64,000 bases of DNA, from assembly GCA_965279515.1 (NCBI GenBank), contig CBDIID010000003.1:1216001-1280000 (forward strand). The letters are read 5' to 3'. Each line of letters starts with the position of its first letter. Positions within the stretch are counted from its first letter, which is position 1. A program made the translations under genes and the position numbers. Below the pieces are notes generated by a model. The model worked only from the letters and a program-made list of their open reading frames with translations, was not told the origin of the DNA and did no database searches. Below are positions 1 to 5,269 of this stretch, in pieces. The stretch comes from Turneriella sp. GTDB taxonomy: Bacteria > Spirochaetota > Leptospiria > Turneriellales > Turneriellaceae.

Positions 1-2363
1 CATTGCATGACTGCCGGATTGCCCTCAAGGACTTTTAACACGATGTCCTTTCGCTGCTCGACCAGAATAAAGAGCCGCAGCGGATCATGAATTTCGATCA
101 TCTGCTCGGGCAGCCCGGTGCGCAGATCACCCTCCGCCCCGTTGCCGACGCCAAGCAGCGAAAAAACATTATGCGGTAATTTGGACCCCGCGCCAAAAAC
201 CGAATTGTCCATGCGCGAGAATAGGTACTCGAGATTGATACCCGCACACACCGGCACGAGCGGCGTCAGAATTCCGTTCAGAATCTTTCCGTCTTTATCG
301 GTCCGGGGATCGTAGGAATTAAAAAAGGCGCGGCGATCCAGAAAAAGATTTTCAGAGAGTGAGCGACGGGCGACAATCGCCAACGCATTCGTCGCATGGT
401 TATACTCCGGCCTCGGTTCGAAGAGCATCTCGGTGCGTAGGCGTACTTCCTTCATGGCCTTTTTGAAACCATAGGGAAAATTCAGAATGGCAAATCGGCG
501 TGTCCGTTCATGTGCGTTATGTTCCAGCGCGCTGTTGAATATCGCATTCAGCTCTTTCAGCTGATCTGAATGGTGTGCCATGACATCGTCTTCGTCCATG
601 AAAATAATCTCGTCGCGGGCCGTATCGTGGATCGCACCGATAAAGCGCGTAGAAAGGGGAATATCGATGCCCTCGGCTTTGAGTAGCCGTCGTACATCGT
701 CGCGGTTAGCCATCGTCGCGTACGTGCGTGCGTTGACGAACCCTGGTCTTCCTGAGCAGGCGCCGCAATCGTATGCGGCGAAGTATGGATTGTTTGTACT
801 ACTCGACCCATGGCCGACAACCGCGACCAACGCCGCAAAATTGTGGGTTAAGCCGATTTGGCGTAAAACCCGCGCCACGCGTTCCGCCATTTCGCTGACG
901 GTATAACCCTCGAAGTAACCGTCCTGCGGTGCCTCCCCATCTGGCCTCTCGTAGTGCAGATCGGTTTCATCATCATGTGCGGCAAACGAACTCGCCGTAG
1001 CAAATGTGCGCGAGGGTTTTGCAATCGATATTCCGAGTCTGACGAGGGAAAAAAGACCGAAAACGAGAGATATCAGCCAGCCTAAAACCAGGTTATTCGC
1101 ATAACGATGCCAGAAATTCATCTCAATGCGGCTGGCGGGTAATTTTCTCTTATGCTTCGCTATGCCGCGGATACGGTGACGGGGTGTAACCGGCACCGGA
1201 CACTGCTTGATTGAAATGGCGTCATAGGGTCCCTGATAGACGGCATCTATGGCAAAGAAGCCGGGTGTCGCAAACGTTTCCACGCCATCCGTAAGTTCTT
1301 CGAGATAACGCCGGAAAGAAGACTCCCTGTCATCGATGCAGAATAGCGCCTGAAATTTTGTTTTCCCTTCTTTAGAAAACCGTCCGCGCTTCTGACCTGC
1401 GTTTACCCTGATGGCGCGCAGTGTATCGAGATAAAAACTCAATTCCATCGCCTCAAGCCAAAGGCGACAAATCTTCTCACCCTCGTTTTCGACCGGCGCG
1501 TGCTCTGCAAAAAACGCGGTATTGGTATTGACCAGGTCCAGTTTGGATTTCTCCCAACCGCCTGCGGTGGCACGTTCCGTAAAAATCGCCAGATAAAGAG
1601 CGACGTATTGTACAAGTTTGATCAGGCGCGGATAACTCAGGGATTCCGGGCGGTCTTCTACCTGCGCAATAAGCCCCGACCAGCCGCGCGCAGCCATGAG
1701 CACTTCGAGAAGAAAGGTACGCCTGTCCGCTTTTTCTGGTAACAGCTTTTCCAGGCAATCTGCGACAATGTCTTCAGGGGATTTTTTGCGTATCTGGTCA
1801 GTTAAGTGTGCGCTTAAGGCGTGGATTTTCCCCGTGCGCAACTGTTGGCGCAACGCCGACCAGAAGTCGAGTTGACCTTCGCCTAACGAGATTGCCGCCA
1901 TCCCCTGGTCCAGGTAACTGGCGACCAAACGGAAAACATGCGGATGAATTTGTTCCTCAAGAACAATACCGCATTGCTGCTTGATTGAGAACATGTATCC
2001 GTGCCTGCGAAAACCGGGACGGTGTTGTACATCCGCCAGTTCTCTGTAGAGCATCCGGTGGCGCACTTCCGCCGTGTCGCCACCTTCAGAAGCTAAGACT
2101 AAATTCAGCGCCTCATCACTGATCTTGCCGCTTTTAAACAATGCCCGGAATTCGGAAACCGGCAGGTATTCCCGCGCACCGTAGAGGCGCGAGGCCTGGC
2201 GGATGGATTCATCGAAGCTGAGGTTATGTTCCTGGAAGGCATGCAGCGTATTATGGTGGATAAAATCCTTAATCGGTCCCTGTGACGGCAGATAATGGCG
2301 GATTTCCTTTAGAATTGTCGTAATATCCGTTGGTGCTTCCTGCTTTTTTGAATTCTTTTTCAT
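1..2363 (-). CDS. dabA: DUF2309/UPF0753 family putative inorganic carbon transporter subunit DabA (beta-carbonic-anhydrase-like), 3' end runs off window
   Basis: Absent from the ORF track because there is no stop in the window. Manual translation from ATG 2363 (SD GAGGAGG) gives LPSQGPIKDFIHHNTLHAF, FQALFCIDDRESSFRRYLEE, GHGSSSTNNPYFAAYDCGACSG, RPEYNHATNA, FLDRRAFFNSYDP and INLEYLFS...GSKLPHNV...GDLRTGLPEQM, all DUF2309 signatures including the C/D/H/C Zn ligands. Confidence 0.92.
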   Translation of the reverse strand, partial: MKKNSKKQEAPTDITTILKEIRHYLPSQGPIKDFIHHNTLHAFQEHNLSFDESIRQASRLYGAREYLPVSEFRALFKSGKISDEALNLVLASEGGDTAEVRHRMLYRELADVQHRPGFRRHGYMFSIKQQCGIVLEEQIHPHVFRLVASYLDQGMAAISLGEGQLDFWSALRQQLRTGKIHALSAHLTDQIRKKSPEDIVADCLEKLLPEKADRRTFLLEVLMAARGWSGLIAQVEDRPESLSYPRLIKLVQYVALYLAIFTERATAGGWEKSKLDLVNTNTAFFAEHAPVENEGEKICRLWLEAMELSFYLDTLRAIRVNAGQKRGRFSKEGKTKFQALFCIDDRESSFRRYLEELTDGVETFATPGFFAIDAVYQGPYDAISIKQCPVPVTPRHRIRGIAKHKRKLPASRIEMNFWHRYANNLVLGWLISLVFGLFSLVRLGISIAKPSRTFATASSFAAHDDETDLHYERPDGEAPQDGYFEGYTVSEMAERVARVLRQIGLTHNFAALVAVVGHGSSSTNNPYFAAYDCGACSGRPGFVNARTYATMANRDDVRRLLKAEGIDIPLSTRFIGAIHDTARDEIIFMDEDDVMAHHSDQLKELNAIFNSALEHNAHERTRRFAILNFPYGFKKAMKEVRLRTEMLFEPRPEYNHATNALAIVARRSLSENLFLDRRAFFNSYDPRTDKDGKILNGILTPLVPVCAGINLEYLFSRMDNSVFGAGSKLPHNVFSLLGVGNGAEGDLRTGLPEQMIEIHDPLRLFILVEQRKDIVLKVLEGNPAVMQ

Positions 2364-2465
2364 CTTCCTCCTCAGGTACGGAGCTTGGATAATTCTCCGC
2401 CAAAAACAATAATGGGATTAAACGCGCCGGGACAGAGCTCTCATACCGAGCCTGCCGTCGGGTGT

Positions 2466-2855
2466 TTAGAGAGCAGGAGGGGCGCGCGAGTTTGCTAGAG
2501 AAAGGAGGTCTTTTTGGTGGAGAATCAGGGACGATGCCGAAAAATCGTTGCGAATGAAGTGAATTTGGGGTAAATGGACCGCGTCGGCGGTGACATAGAC
2601 ATCTGCATCGGACTCACCGTCGCACTCTTCACCGTTTTCAGCAAAGAGGCCATCGACCTTGGCCAAGTTCTGCGCAGGGGGTTGGGTAGAGAGCATCAGG
2701 GTTGAAGATGCAGAGGTACAATACGCCGAACCTTCGATGCTACCCAAAAAAATGAACGCAGCCAGCACCAACACAAATCGTCTGAGATATTGGCCGTGCT
2801 TTGCCTTGTGAATCATCTCTTTTAACATAGTAGTAAATCGATCCGAATATGGCAA
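2466..2855 (-). CDS. Small exported-type leader protein with C-terminal RAPP motif (candidate translation-arrest peptide); start may be 2828 or 2816
   Basis: Basic n-region, hydrophobic RRFVLVLAAFIFLG, acidic linker, ends SRAPPAL*; co-oriented 102 nt upstream of dabA. Confidence 0.7.
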   Translation of the reverse strand: MPYSDRFTTMLKEMIHKAKHGQYLRRFVLVLAAFIFLGSIEGSAYCTSASSTLMLSTQPPAQNLAKVDGLFAENGEECDGESDADVYVTADAVHLPQIHFIRNDFSASSLILHQKDLLSLANSRAPPAL

Positions 2856-3097
2856 TAAAATCCGCAGGCAAATTTCGTGCCTGAGCTGCTTTCTGGGGTG
2901 GGCGGCAGATCGTTAGCGAACCTGCCCGATGAAAATGGAAAATGCTGAAATCCGGGAAAAGCGGGCATTTGCTCGTTCACGGCGTGATTTTTGCGACTAA
3001 AAATCGTGCAGCTTCTCTTGAGATTTCAGAATTTTGCACACCCTCCGCGCGCCCCTTTTTCCCTTTACCTGTACATGCTGCGCAGAAATCATACGCC

Positions 3098-5269
3098 ATG
3101 TCTTCGCTTGTCCGGTTTGCGTTCCGGTGGATTGCTTATTTTTCATCCTACGGTATAGCGGTGGCGACGTCGGCGGCGATCAGCTCGATACTCGCGATCT
3201 CCTTTGGTCTCTACTACGCCCGTGCGACGAATTTCCCGCTTTCGAATGCCATGCTGATCACCATCGCGATCGGCGCGGCGGTCGCCTGGATCGGCCATTC
3301 GGTGCAATTCGGTATTCTGAATAAAATCGGCTTCCCGGGTTTTACCCGCCCCGTTCTGGCAGTCAATCGTTTCATCACAGCCACCCCCGACCTTTCGATC
3401 AGACCCGATCTCAGGGAATCGGATTACCATGAGCTCTTACGCGCGCTGACGATTATTCCACTCACCAATGCATTTACCGCGGTACTTTCAGTACAGCTGA
3501 TCTTCGGGGCGATTCTCGTCGCCGCAGAGCTCTCGATTAAATTCGAGCCCTACCACTATGTGCAGGGCCTGATCATGGACCTGATGTTTTCTTTTATCCA
3601 TGGCGGCTTCTGCCTGGTGATCGGCGAAATCGCCACAGGGGGCATGCGCGCCGAATGCAAGCGCATCATGCACGAAAAGGGGATCGCCTTCACGGACCGC
3701 GCTGTCACAACAGTGCGGCTGAAACTCGCCTTCTTCATCACACTCTTTCTCGTAACGCTTTACGTCGCCGCAACCCTTGTCTACTACAACCGCGACAATT
3801 TGCAGGCAATCCTCATTTTCACACTCATGGCGACCGTTGCCGCGGTGCTGATGGCCTACATGATCTTCTACCTGATCTACAGTGCGCTCAAAGATATCGA
3901 AGGCGCTATGGACGATTTAAAATCCGGCGGTTCGGGACTTATTTTCACGAAGTCGATCGACAGCGAATTTGTCAAGGTCGCGACCGGAATCTCCGACGCC
4001 GCACGCACAATCAAAGACTACCAGGCAAACCTGGAACAGAAGATCGACGAGCGCACGCGCGAGTTGCAGGAAAGTTTAGGGAATGTAAAGGCCCTGAAGG
4101 GCCAGCAAGACGGCGATTATTTTCTCACCTCGCTGCTGCTGAAGCCGTTAACCGGAAATTACGCCAACAACCGCCAGATCAAAGTCAGTATCTTCATCCG
4201 CCAGAAAAAAAGTTTCGAATTCAAAACGAAAACGAACGAAATCGGCGGCGACATCTGCCTCGCGCACTCGATCAGGCTGCGCGGGCGGGATTACACCCTG
4301 TTCTTAAACGGCGACGCAATGGGCAAATCGATGCAGGGCGCCGGCGGATCGTTGGTTCTGGGCGCCGTCATGCAATCGATTGTCGAGCGCACGAAGCTCT
4401 CGCCCAAAGAACAGGTACTTTATCCCGAGCGCTGGCTGAAGGCGGTGTTTCTCGAACTGCAAAAAACTTTTGAAAGTTTCGACGGTTCGATGTTGATCTC
4501 GGTGATTATGGGTCTTGCCGATGAGAAATCCGGCTTTGTCTATTTTATCAACGCCGAGCACCCCTGGTCTGCAATCTACCGCCAAGGCAAGGCGTTCTTT
4601 ATCGAAAACGACCTGACGCTCAGAAAGCTCGGCACGCTCGGCGTGGCGATGGGCATCCGCGTGCAGACGTATGAGATGAAACCCAACGACACATTCGTTA
4701 TCGGCTCGGACGGTCGCGACGACCTGGTTCTAGGCACCGACGAGACGGGCACCCGCATCATCAACGAAGATGAAAATCTGTTTCTGCGCATGCTTGAATC
4801 GGGCAAAGGCAATCTCGAACAGACCTATAACCTGTGCAAAGAGACAGGGGATATTTCAGACGACTTCTCACTCATCTCGCTTACCTACCTGCCTGAAATA
4901 GAAACACGCGACATGCGCTTCGGCATCGGGCAAAAAATCAGCGAAGCGCGTGCCTTCGTCGCCAAAAAGAATTACGCAGCAGCAACCGAACTTTTGGAGC
5001 ACGCCTACGAGGTTTCGAAGGATAACCTTCACGTCGCACGCGCGCTCGCCCATATCTATTACAGGGCGGGCAAGCTGGCAGAAGCCGCGCGCTATTTCGA
5101 CCTCTATAGCGAAGAGAACCCGGGCGACACACAGACGATCGGGGTATTGGGATCGCTGTTATTGAAGCTGGGTGACACCGAACGCGCGGCCGACGTATTA
5201 ACCCGCCTCAAGATCCGCAACCCGCACGATGAGAAGATCGCCAGCCAGCTGGCGAAAATTTATAAGTAG
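3098..5269 (+). CDS. Membrane-bound PP2C/SpoIIE-family Ser/Thr phosphatase with coiled coil and C-terminal TPRs
   Basis: About 6 TM segments, coiled coil LEQKIDERTREL, PP2C motifs IGGD, NGDAMGK, INAEHP, GSDGRDD, SDDFSL, and a TPR-like tail. ORF is open from 2942; ATG 3098 is preferred. Confidence 0.85.
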   Translation: MSSLVRFAFRWIAYFSSYGIAVATSAAISSILAISFGLYYARATNFPLSNAMLITIAIGAAVAWIGHSVQFGILNKIGFPGFTRPVLAVNRFITATPDLSIRPDLRESDYHELLRALTIIPLTNAFTAVLSVQLIFGAILVAAELSIKFEPYHYVQGLIMDLMFSFIHGGFCLVIGEIATGGMRAECKRIMHEKGIAFTDRAVTTVRLKLAFFITLFLVTLYVAATLVYYNRDNLQAILIFTLMATVAAVLMAYMIFYLIYSALKDIEGAMDDLKSGGSGLIFTKSIDSEFVKVATGISDAARTIKDYQANLEQKIDERTRELQESLGNVKALKGQQDGDYFLTSLLLKPLTGNYANNRQIKVSIFIRQKKSFEFKTKTNEIGGDICLAHSIRLRGRDYTLFLNGDAMGKSMQGAGGSLVLGAVMQSIVERTKLSPKEQVLYPERWLKAVFLELQKTFESFDGSMLISVIMGLADEKSGFVYFINAEHPWSAIYRQGKAFFIENDLTLRKLGTLGVAMGIRVQTYEMKPNDTFVIGSDGRDDLVLGTDETGTRIINEDENLFLRMLESGKGNLEQTYNLCKETGDISDDFSLISLTYLPEIETRDMRFGIGQKISEARAFVAKKNYAAATELLEHAYEVSKDNLHVARALAHIYYRAGKLAEAARYFDLYSEENPGDTQTIGVLGSLLLKLGDTERAADVLTRLKIRNPHDEKIASQLAKIYK

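What the first reader, a model, noticed from the sequence alone, without database searches (positions are those of the whole stretch)
1..2855. Candidate RAPP ribosome-arrest leader controlling a DabA CO2/bicarbonate pump
Seen: a ~116-129-aa ORF with a signal/TM segment, an acidic spacer (ENGEECDGESDAD), several His and two Cys, ending SRAPPAL*. It lies 102 nt upstream of, and co-oriented with, a DUF2309/DabA gene. Established: C-terminal RAPP/RAGP/RGPP motifs stall ribosomes in SecM and ApcA/ApdA/ApdP (upstream of protein-localization genes) and in DUF2946 leaders such as CruR/CutF (upstream of copper genes). In the Sec-monitoring cases, export pulling on the N-terminal signal relieves the arrest. 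DabAB couples an ion gradient to CO2 hydration. Inference: this is an arrest-peptide sensor that links inorganic-carbon uptake to export activity, proton motive force, pH/CO2 or Zn. I know of no description of an arrest peptide regulating a dab gene.
Basis: partly seen in the sequence, partly recalled or inferred. Interest (0 to 1): 0.88.

Follow-up and report, generated by a model that had tools for sequence, protein, structure and literature searches.

The report
Ribosome-stalling leader before CO2-pump genes
A small exported protein that ends in a known ribosome-stalling sequence sits in front of this bacterium's CO2/bicarbonate uptake genes and probably acts as a switch for them, possibly by feeling the electrical pull across the membrane, although no stall has been measured.

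Summary
Observation confirmed: a 116-aa signal-peptide ORF ending RAPP lies 102 nt before a dabA-dabB-sulP-porin operon. It is a real gene under selection. All 29 homologues found (median 21% identity) end in RAPP or RGPP. It heads the dab operon in 12 of 14 family genomes with dabA and was found in 0 of 6 without. R[AG]PP occurs once in 1.1 million residues of this genome's long ORFs (A[AG]PP 34 times). The His and Cys residues are not conserved, so Zn sensing is unsupported; an acidic band 36-55 residues before the motif is conserved. The genome's only beta-carbonic anhydrase (a SulP fusion) has an unrelated leader of the same design ending PPP, as do many Bacteroidota dab/sulP/CA operons. 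Best reading: a RAPP arrest leader whose stall keeps the operon on, perhaps released by membrane-potential pull on the acidic band (inferred). Stall, direction and signal are untested; one paralogue heads an efflux pump. RAPP leaders before diverse genes are published, with SulP in the source data; no dab case appeared in my searches. This scan noted such leaders before on other DNA (e1-7114977, e1-5170005, e1-5263752).

The parts
2827..2855 (-). sigma70-like promoter of the leader (-35 TTGCCA 2855..2850, -10 TACTAT 2832..2827)
   Evidence: consensus scan; similar element 7-11 nt before the start in 7 of 12 homologous loci; function not shown
2466..2816 (-). leader ORF, 116 aa from ATG 2816 (open frame 129 aa from TTG 2855)
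   Evidence: no Pfam or NCBIfam family
2724..2816 (-). signal-peptide-like N-terminus (basic n-region, hydrophobic residues 14-25, possible cleavage after Ala31)
   Evidence: hydropathy 1.4-2.35 in 12 of 12 homologues; FLG core conserved; cleavage site judged by eye, no signal-peptide predictor was available
2601..2654 (-). conserved acidic band (D55, E60, E63, E64, D66, E68), about 43-56 residues before the Arg of RAPP
   Evidence: D/E at E63 in 29 of 29, D55 26, E60 24, E68 23; 81 D/E observed against 40.5 in shuffles (window chosen after seeing the data)
2475..2486 (-). RAPP arrest motif (residues 111-114), two residues before the stop
   Evidence: 24 RAPP and 5 RGPP among 29 homologues; synonymous codon variation
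2475..2560 (-). C-rich, G-poor mRNA stretch at the leader's 3' end, possible Rho loading site
   Evidence: 43% C against 12% G in the 60 nt ending with the motif; fewer G than synonymous recoding gives, z -2.5; rho present; weak
2364..2465 (-). 102-nt intergenic region with the purine-rich ribosome-binding site of dabA (2373..2364)
   Evidence: no coding-strand promoter or terminator match inside it; predicted local hairpin over the site
1..2363 (-). dabA (first 787 of 854 codons; it runs off the window and is followed by dabB, sulP and an alginate-export-like porin gene)
   Evidence: PF10070; PF00361/PF00662; PF00916; PF13372; Cys, Asp, His, Cys motif at 342, 344, 518, 533

Best explanation
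The ORF is a regulatory leader of the RAPP arrest-peptide kind. SHOWN by sequence: design, conservation and position. INFERRED: (1) the ribosome stalls with the two Pro codons in the P and A sites, as measured for other RAPP peptides; (2) the signal peptide threads the chain into the Sec channel, so the acidic band, about 45 residues from the stall site, sits at the membrane; (3) a strong membrane potential pulls the carboxylates outward and releases the stall, whereas a weak potential or low pH leaves it in place; (4) the stalled ribosome keeps the operon on, by covering a C-rich Rho loading site and in some homologues by freeing the downstream ribosome-binding site; (5) the result is more DabAB and SulP when the cell's energy or pH state calls for it. 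My odds: stalls 0.85; controls the operon 0.7; the acidic band is the input 0.45; the input is membrane potential or pH 0.3.
For: R[AG]PP ends 29 of 29 homologues at median 21% identity. It occurs once in 1,106,933 residues of this genome's ORFs of 300 aa or more, against 34 for A[AG]PP. The leader heads the dab operon in 12 of 14 family genomes with dabA and was found in 0 of 6 without; in G008 it stays first although the order is sulP, SPFH gene, dabA, dabB. Seven of seven C-terminal RAPP/RGPP proteins of Streptomyces lividans stalled when tested (PMC12992588). The acidic band is conserved and enriched at -55..-36 in three non-homologous leader groups: 81 vs 40.5, 60 vs 38.3, 72 vs 34.0. About 45 residues span the ribosome's active site to the translocon (PMC12002286), and membrane potential pulls acidic stretches through SecYEG and releases SecM arrest (review PMC6028853). 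DAB homologues contribute to membrane potential (PMC8552792). The genome's one beta-carbonic anhydrase has a leader of the same design ending TPPP. In SecM, CruR and CutF stalling raises downstream expression.
Against: No stall, expression or ribosome data exist here; the one RNA run gave a single 175-nt contig inside dabA. [quoted passage not shown] Two genomes (G012, G013) keep dabAB with no leader. A paralogue with acidic band and RAPP heads an RND efflux operon in G003. The acidic band is also enriched, more weakly, in 7 other leader-like ORFs of this genome, 25 vs 14.5, so it may be a general feature of leaders. The review notes that basic and neutral stretches also relieved arrest. Blocking the leader mRNA lowered the cost of opening the ribosome-binding site by 5 kcal/mol or more in only 6 of 12 loci (2 of 12 with the footprint alone) and not in this window, 9.7 to 9.2; pairing with that site beat synonymous recoding in 1 of 12. 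The leader profile was built from the 12 loci it recovers, and these genomes are kin.
Confidence: 0.62

Rival explanations
1. An arrest leader that monitors general Sec export, like SecM or ApdP: the signal peptide alone supplies the pull, and the operon (membrane proteins and a porin) is tuned to export capacity. The acidic band only keeps the spacer soluble and unfolded.
For: Signal peptide and long spacer fit the monitoring-substrate design. Acid enrichment also appears in this genome's other leaders. A paralogue heads an unrelated membrane transporter operon.
Against: Downstream genes are not Sec components, so there is no feedback loop. Single acidic positions are fixed (E63 D/E in 29 of 29). 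By eye, few of the 27 secD-leader rows seen in PMC12992588's source data carry such a Glu cluster (not counted).
Confidence: 0.15
2. The acidic band binds a cation (Ca, Mg, Zn, Na) or is protonated in the periplasm, and the folding that follows releases or holds the stall, as the CxxC site does in CruR and CutF.
For: The band lies where CruR has its CxxC, 45 residues before RAPP (PMC9426467). DabA needs Zn (PMC13684180). Several acidic positions are conserved with regular spacing.
Against: No conserved His or Cys. In this genome Cys- or His-rich leaders head other genes, among them a TonB-receptor-like and an AcrB-family gene. The band's sequence differs between the three leader groups, as suits charge more than a shaped site.
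Confidence: 0.15
3. The stall is constitutive and senses nothing: it holds the mRNA at the translocon and shields it from Rho so that a long membrane-protein operon is made at the membrane.
For: RAPP arrest is strong and resistant to EF-P. The C-rich, G-poor stretch is present in 12 of 12 loci. Leaders of this design precede many envelope operons.
Against: All studied natural cases read here are conditional. dabB-first operons carry a divergent LysR-type regulator in place of a leader in 5 of 6 loci viewed, which suggests that the slot is regulatory.
Confidence: 0.12
4. The ORF encodes a small exported accessory protein of the Dab complex, and RAPP does not stall.
For: Some DAB operons have a small third subunit, DabC (PMC13684180). 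Many RAPP-like motifs do not stall.
Against: Only the motif, the hydrophobic core and the acidic band are conserved at 21% identity; unrelated peptides with other tails fill the same slot in Bacteroidota; the motif is otherwise almost absent from the proteome.
Confidence: 0.06

Closest known systems
RAPP/RGPP arrest peptides upstream of genes of diverse function (Fujiwara et al. 2025, PMC12992588)
   Same: Small ORF, localisation signal, RAPP/RGPP near the C-terminus, co-oriented downstream gene. SulP is a downstream product in 15 of the 8,420 source-data rows held, 13 with the motif near the end.
   Different: DabA/DUF2309 and carbonic anhydrase appear neither in the rows held nor among the top 30 classes; SulP, bicarbonate and acidic do not occur in the main text. 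No acidic sensor band is described.
CruR (Bordetella, DUF2946; PMC9426467) and CutF (Rhodobacter; bioRxiv 10.1101/2025.02.05.636593)
   Same: Signal peptide, a conserved segment about 45 residues before a RAPP or PPP stall, long intergenic region; a C-rich, G-poor stretch as in CruR.
   Different: No CxxC, no DUF2946 match, no copper genes; the conserved segment is Glu/Asp-rich and the cargo is inorganic-carbon uptake.
Sec-monitoring arrest peptides SecM, ApdA, ApdP (PMC10951233, PMC10987492)
   Same: RAPP-like motif, N-terminal export signal, spacer longer than 30 residues.
   Different: Downstream genes are not secA, secDF or yidC; no SecM upstream motif.
Engineered force-sensor constructs with acidic stretches (Ismail et al. 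2015, seen only through review PMC6028853)
   Same: Exported chain with an acidic stretch at translocon distance from an arrest motif.
   Different: Those are laboratory constructs; my searches returned no natural leader said to work this way.
DAB / MpsAB inorganic-carbon pumps (PMC13684180, PMC8552792)
   Same: DabA with Zn-ligand motif beside a DabB antiporter-like subunit.
   Different: dabA-first order with sulP and a porin gene, headed by a leader ORF; dabB-first loci viewed have a divergent LysR-type gene.

Membership tests
RAPP/RGPP arrest peptides | small upstream ORF co-oriented with the downstream gene | tested here: met
   116 aa, 102 nt before dabA; first in the operon in 11 of 12 loci, behind the porin gene in G003
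RAPP/RGPP arrest peptides | RAPP/RGPP conserved near the C-terminus | tested here: met
   29 of 29 homologues
RAPP/RGPP arrest peptides | N-terminal localisation signal | tested here: met
   hydropathy peak 1.4-2.35 in 12 of 12; by hydropathy only, no predictor
RAPP/RGPP arrest peptides | spacer of more than 30 residues between signal and motif | tested here: met
   68-85 residues; criterion from PMC10987492
RAPP/RGPP arrest peptides | motif-dependent ribosome stall | not testable with these tools
   needs in vitro translation or toeprinting; motif avoidance in the proteome is indirect
RAPP/RGPP arrest peptides | stall controls the downstream gene in cis | not testable with these tools
   RNA predictions are mixed; no usable RNA data
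DUF2946 (CruR/CutF) | Pfam PF11162 match | tested here: not met
   no family for the leader; 8 homologues gave nothing below E 0.09; only a feature-level look-alike at 0.93 in the Atlas
DUF2946 (CruR/CutF) | CxxC about 45 residues before the motif | tested here: not met
   Cys33 and Cys65 not conserved; acidic residues hold that place
DUF2946 (CruR/CutF) | heads a copper-handling operon | tested here: not met
   dabA, dabB, sulP, porin
DUF2946 (CruR/CutF) | C-over-G bubble usable by Rho (CruR) | tested here: inconclusive
   C exceeds G in 12 of 12; G at fourfold sites 0.23 against 0.31 and 0.35 in controls; partly due to Pro, Ser and Leu codons
Sec/YidC monitoring substrates (SecM, ApdA, ApdP, ApcA) | downstream gene is secA, secDF or yidC | tested here: not met
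His-rich metal leaders (CzcI-like) | conserved His cluster | tested here: not met
   five His, none conserved; CzcI appeared only as an Atlas look-alike at 0.92
DabAB | PF10070 protein with Cys/Asp/His/Cys site next to a PF00361 subunit | tested here: met
   the ligand pattern is partly recalled, PMC13684180 gives two Cys and one His
DabAB | energised CO2 uptake | not testable with these tools
   needs complementation of a carbonic-anhydrase-free strain

The most novel reading that the evidence does not exclude
Spirochaetes and Bacteroidota control inorganic-carbon uptake (dabAB, sulP, beta-carbonic anhydrase) with a convergent class of leader peptides that act as voltmeters or pH meters: an exported acidic band held about 45 residues from a stall site is pulled through the Sec channel by the membrane potential, and three unrelated tails (RAPP/RGPP, xPPP, and an aromatic L-Y/F-x-L-F/Y-x-S/N-W/L-K/R end that would be a new arrest motif) serve as the brake.
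Probability: 0.25. Interest if true: 0.85.

Novelty: new variant of a known kind. Interest (0 to 1): 0.62.

Why it matters
How heterotrophs tune CO2/bicarbonate uptake is little studied, and arrest peptides described so far in the papers read here watch protein export or copper. A stalling leader on both inorganic-carbon loci of one genome, and on the matching operons of a second phylum, would add a translation-level control of carbon uptake. If the acidic band is the input, it would be a natural use of the electrical pull on nascent chains that my searches found only for engineered constructs. The leader is short and the tests are routine, so the question is directly testable. If the stall proves constitutive or export-driven, it is one more member of a published class.

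Tried and rejected
Zn sensing by His/Cys: rejected, residues not conserved. Direct CO2 sensing through a conserved Lys: no conserved Lys in the alignment summary. A fixed anti-Shine-Dalgarno switch: the leader's 3' end has CCUCCU stretches, but pairing with the downstream site beat synonymous recoding in 1 of 12 loci (window: 86% of recodings paired as well), and leader-to-intergenic pairing in 0 of 12; the 201-nt fold had z -0.62. Homology between the RAPP, PPP and aromatic-tail leaders: not detected (probabilities 1.7 and 0.3). Wider spread of this leader family: 1 weak non-own hit in 201 phylum genomes, not a leader. 'All proton-motive-force operons have acidic leaders': not borne out by eye in 30 antiporter and 25 oxidase rows of the published list, the latter mostly CxxC type (not counted). 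Acidic band as specific to carbon genes: rejected. Expression: the one RNA run laid gave a single 175-nt contig in dabA, uninformative. Literature search returned only unrelated papers. The metagenome scan with the single protein gave 6 loci: 2 with RAPP leader, 1 with aromatic tail, 1 without, 2 cut short. No genome handles outside Spirochaetota and Bacteroidota were reachable, so the planctomycete note could not be checked. No structure or complex prediction was run.
Full report
Observation. The ORF at 2466..2855 (-) is 129 aa from TTG and ends SRAPPAL*. A sigma70-like promoter covers 2855..2827 and a similar element stands 7-11 nt before an in-frame start in 7 of 12 homologous loci, so the likely product is 116 aa from ATG 2816. 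RAPP is at 2486..2475 and dabA starts 102 nt after the stop. No coding-strand promoter match lies in that gap. The leader matches no Pfam or NCBIfam family. The Atlas recognised it as protein-like and gave DUF2946-named and CzcI clusters only as look-alikes.

Operon. The genome continues dabA (854 aa, PF10070), dabB (PF00361/PF00662), sulP (PF00916) and an alginate-export-like porin (PF13372). DabA resembles PDB 9rd0 (E 3e-59) and has a Cys/Asp/His/Cys pattern at 342, 344, 518 and 533. The closest titled records are Turneriella and Spirochaetota, so I take the window to come from that genus (inference).

Conservation. DabA was found in 14 of 41 genomes searched, all in the window's family. An ORF ending RAPP or RGPP lies directly before dabA in 11 of them and at the head of a reordered operon (sulP, SPFH gene, dabA, dabB) in G008. 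G012 and G013 have none. A profile of 12 leaders found matches in 12 of 20 family genomes: 12 of 14 with dabA and 0 of 6 without; the profile was built from those 12 and the genomes are kin, so the absences carry the information. Against 1.84 billion representatives it returned 29 proteins, and all 29 end in R[AG]PP (24 RAPP, 5 RGPP) 2-4 residues before the stop, at median pairwise identity 21%. The codons of the motif vary synonymously, which places selection on the peptide. In this genome's 2,222 ORFs of 300 aa or more (1,106,933 residues, some spurious) R[AG]PP occurs once and A[AG]PP 34 times. The family is narrow: 1 weak non-own hit, not a leader, in 201 phylum genomes.

What is conserved between signal and motif. 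The window's five His and two Cys are not conserved. D/E is found at E63 in 29 of 29, D55 in 26, E60 in 24 and E68 in 23. The most acidic 10-residue stretch is centred 42-55 residues before the Arg in 12 of 12. CruR has its CxxC 45 residues before RAPP (PMC9426467, passages).

Same design on other carbon genes. The genome has one beta-carbonic anhydrase, fused to SulP, and it is preceded by an unrelated ORF with signal, EEEEDE band and TPPP tail, kept in 5 of 12 congeners. In Bacteroidota, 13 of 251 genomes had DabA (14 loci). Of 11 dabA-first loci, 9 have a signal-plus-acidic leader with an aromatic tail directly upstream and the other two have a leader at the operon head. Two more such loci have one and two (L027, L028) do not: 13 of 15. 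Of 30 beta-CA loci fetched from 61 genomes, 2 had a PPP leader directly upstream, 8 had sulP upstream and all 8 were headed by a PPP leader, 1 had it between CA and sulP, and 19 showed none. A profile of the PPP leaders gave 7 new hits below E 1e-5 in 151 genomes, all before sulP (5) or beta-CA (2); 7 weaker hits were not examined. In the window's phylum, 9 of 10 genus-g19 genomes have an ENPPP leader before SulP-CA, 0 of 4 in genus g21, and 0 of the 19 top-scoring sulP loci (L153-L171) showed one. dabB-first loci have a divergent LysR-type gene in 5 of 6 viewed. The three leader groups are not detectably homologous, yet each is enriched in D/E at -55..-36: 81 vs 40.5, 60 vs 38.3, 72 vs 34.0 in shuffles (the window was chosen after seeing the data).

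Against specificity. Seven other leader-like ORFs of this genome show the same enrichment more weakly (25 vs 14.5) along with more Lys, Arg and Cys. A paralogue of the leader heads an RND efflux operon in G003, and aromatic-tail look-alikes precede an RND adaptor and a DoxX gene. The acidic band is therefore not a carbon-specific mark.

RNA output. C exceeds G in the 60 nt ending with the motif in 12 of 12 loci (43% against 12% here). G is below synonymous recoding in 11 of 12 (z -2.5 here; this genome's codon use was applied to all), and G at fourfold sites is 0.23 against 0.31 in mid-leader and 0.35 in the next gene. Rho is present. This fits the CruR model weakly. Blocking all leader mRNA lowered the cost of opening the next ribosome-binding site by 5 kcal/mol or more in 6 of 12 loci, the footprint alone in 2 of 12, and neither in this window (some downstream starts were chosen by eye). 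Pairing with that site beat recoding in 1 of 12. The one RNA run was uninformative.

Mechanism. Shown: anatomy, conservation, position. [quoted passage not shown] Inferred here: about 45 residues span the active site to the translocon (PMC12002286), and membrane potential pulls acidic stretches through SecYEG and releases arrest, though basic and neutral stretches also gave some release (PMC6028853; the primary 2015 paper was not read, and that its force peak lies near 45 residues is recalled). DAB homologues contribute to membrane potential (PMC8552792), which would close a loop: low potential, longer stall, more pump. Odds: stall 0.85, control of the operon 0.7, potential or pH as input 0.3.

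What is in print. PMC12992588 (main text parts 1-5 of 10 read, word search of all, supplements searched) reports RAPP leaders before genes of many functions; its top 30 classes do not include dab, sulP or carbonic anhydrase and the main text lacks SulP, bicarbonate and carbon. Its source list has SulP downstream in 15 of 8,420 rows held and DUF2309, DabA or anhydrase in none. That file is cut, to about half by my estimate, and one PDF and three archives were too large to read, so a dab class there is not excluded. Other papers were seen as passages (PMC10987492, PMC9426467, PMC13684180, PMC6028853, PMC12002286, PMC12628692, PMC8552792, PMC10951233) or abstract and discussion (bioRxiv 10.1101/2025.02.05.636593). 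Searches listed no paper on an arrest leader of dab, sulP or carbonic anhydrase genes; most subscription journals are not covered. Earlier notes of this scan describe an RGPP leader before dabAB in planctomycetes (not checked here) and PPP leaders before SulP/CA in two Bacteroidota groups (seen after my own Bacteroidota results and consistent with them); they are leads and not support.

Verdict. A real, conserved leader that works like a RAPP arrest peptide and meets the sequence criteria of that class; not a DUF2946 member and not a Sec monitor by cargo. New variant of a known kind, interest 0.62. The boldest reading not excluded, a convergent class of voltage- or pH-sensing leaders for carbon uptake, has probability 0.25 and would merit 0.85.

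Noticed in passing
G000:C3:817887-818267 (+), L058: Second leader (signal, EEEEDE band, TPPP tail) 43 nt before the genome's SulP/beta-carbonic-anhydrase fusion; homologues in 5 of 12 congeners searched (6 places, 5 followed by sulP).
   Followed up: yes
L040-L050, L026, L056, L098, L099: Bacteroidota dabA-first operons carry signal-plus-acidic leaders, mostly with an aromatic tail (for example LYILFHSW, LFLLFCNLK, LYLTQRSLRI) and no RAPP: 13 of 15 loci seen. The tail may be an undescribed arrest or termination-stall motif; I ran no literature search on it. Similar tails also precede an RND adaptor (L113) and a DoxX gene (L114).
   Followed up: partly
L178, L179, L186, L187, L189-L193: Class-mates of genus g19 (probably Leptospira, an inference) have an acidic leader ending ENPPP before their SulP-CA fusion in 9 of 10 genomes; genus g21 has none in 4 of 4. 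Second sulP copies in L177 and L180 have PPP leaders with a hydrophobic segment in place of the acidic band.
   Followed up: partly
G000:C3 1598110, 1970250, 1976745, 1980174, 1981955, 2030304, 2264800: Seven further leader-like ORFs with signal and RAPP or xPPP tails; five are Cys-rich and four of these cluster at 1.970-1.982 Mb, before a TonB-receptor-like gene, a lipoprotein, an outer-membrane-like protein and a multi-pass membrane protein; the His-rich RAPP one heads an AcrB-family gene.
   Followed up: partly
L217 (G003:C1), 1498-1854 (-): Paralogous acidic RAPP leader between a TetR-like gene (label by eye) and an RND efflux adaptor and permease.
   Followed up: partly
L018 / L007, L015, L017 (G001): Tandem duplication dabA-dabB-sulP-porin-dabA-dabB; the second dabA follows the porin gene with no leader.
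   Followed up: partly
L004, L006, L009, L017: In four dabA copies the common N-terminal HHNTLH stretch reads ADN instead, a possible sub-type.
   Followed up: no
L100-L102, L125-L127: dabB-first operons have a divergent LysR-type gene in 5 of 6 loci viewed (three labelled by eye, two by annotation) and no leader was seen.
   Followed up: partly
window 2942-5269 (+): Divergent membrane-bound PP2C (SpoIIE) phosphatase with TPR repeats, lying beside the leader in most congeners; a conserved neighbour with no tested link.
   Followed up: no
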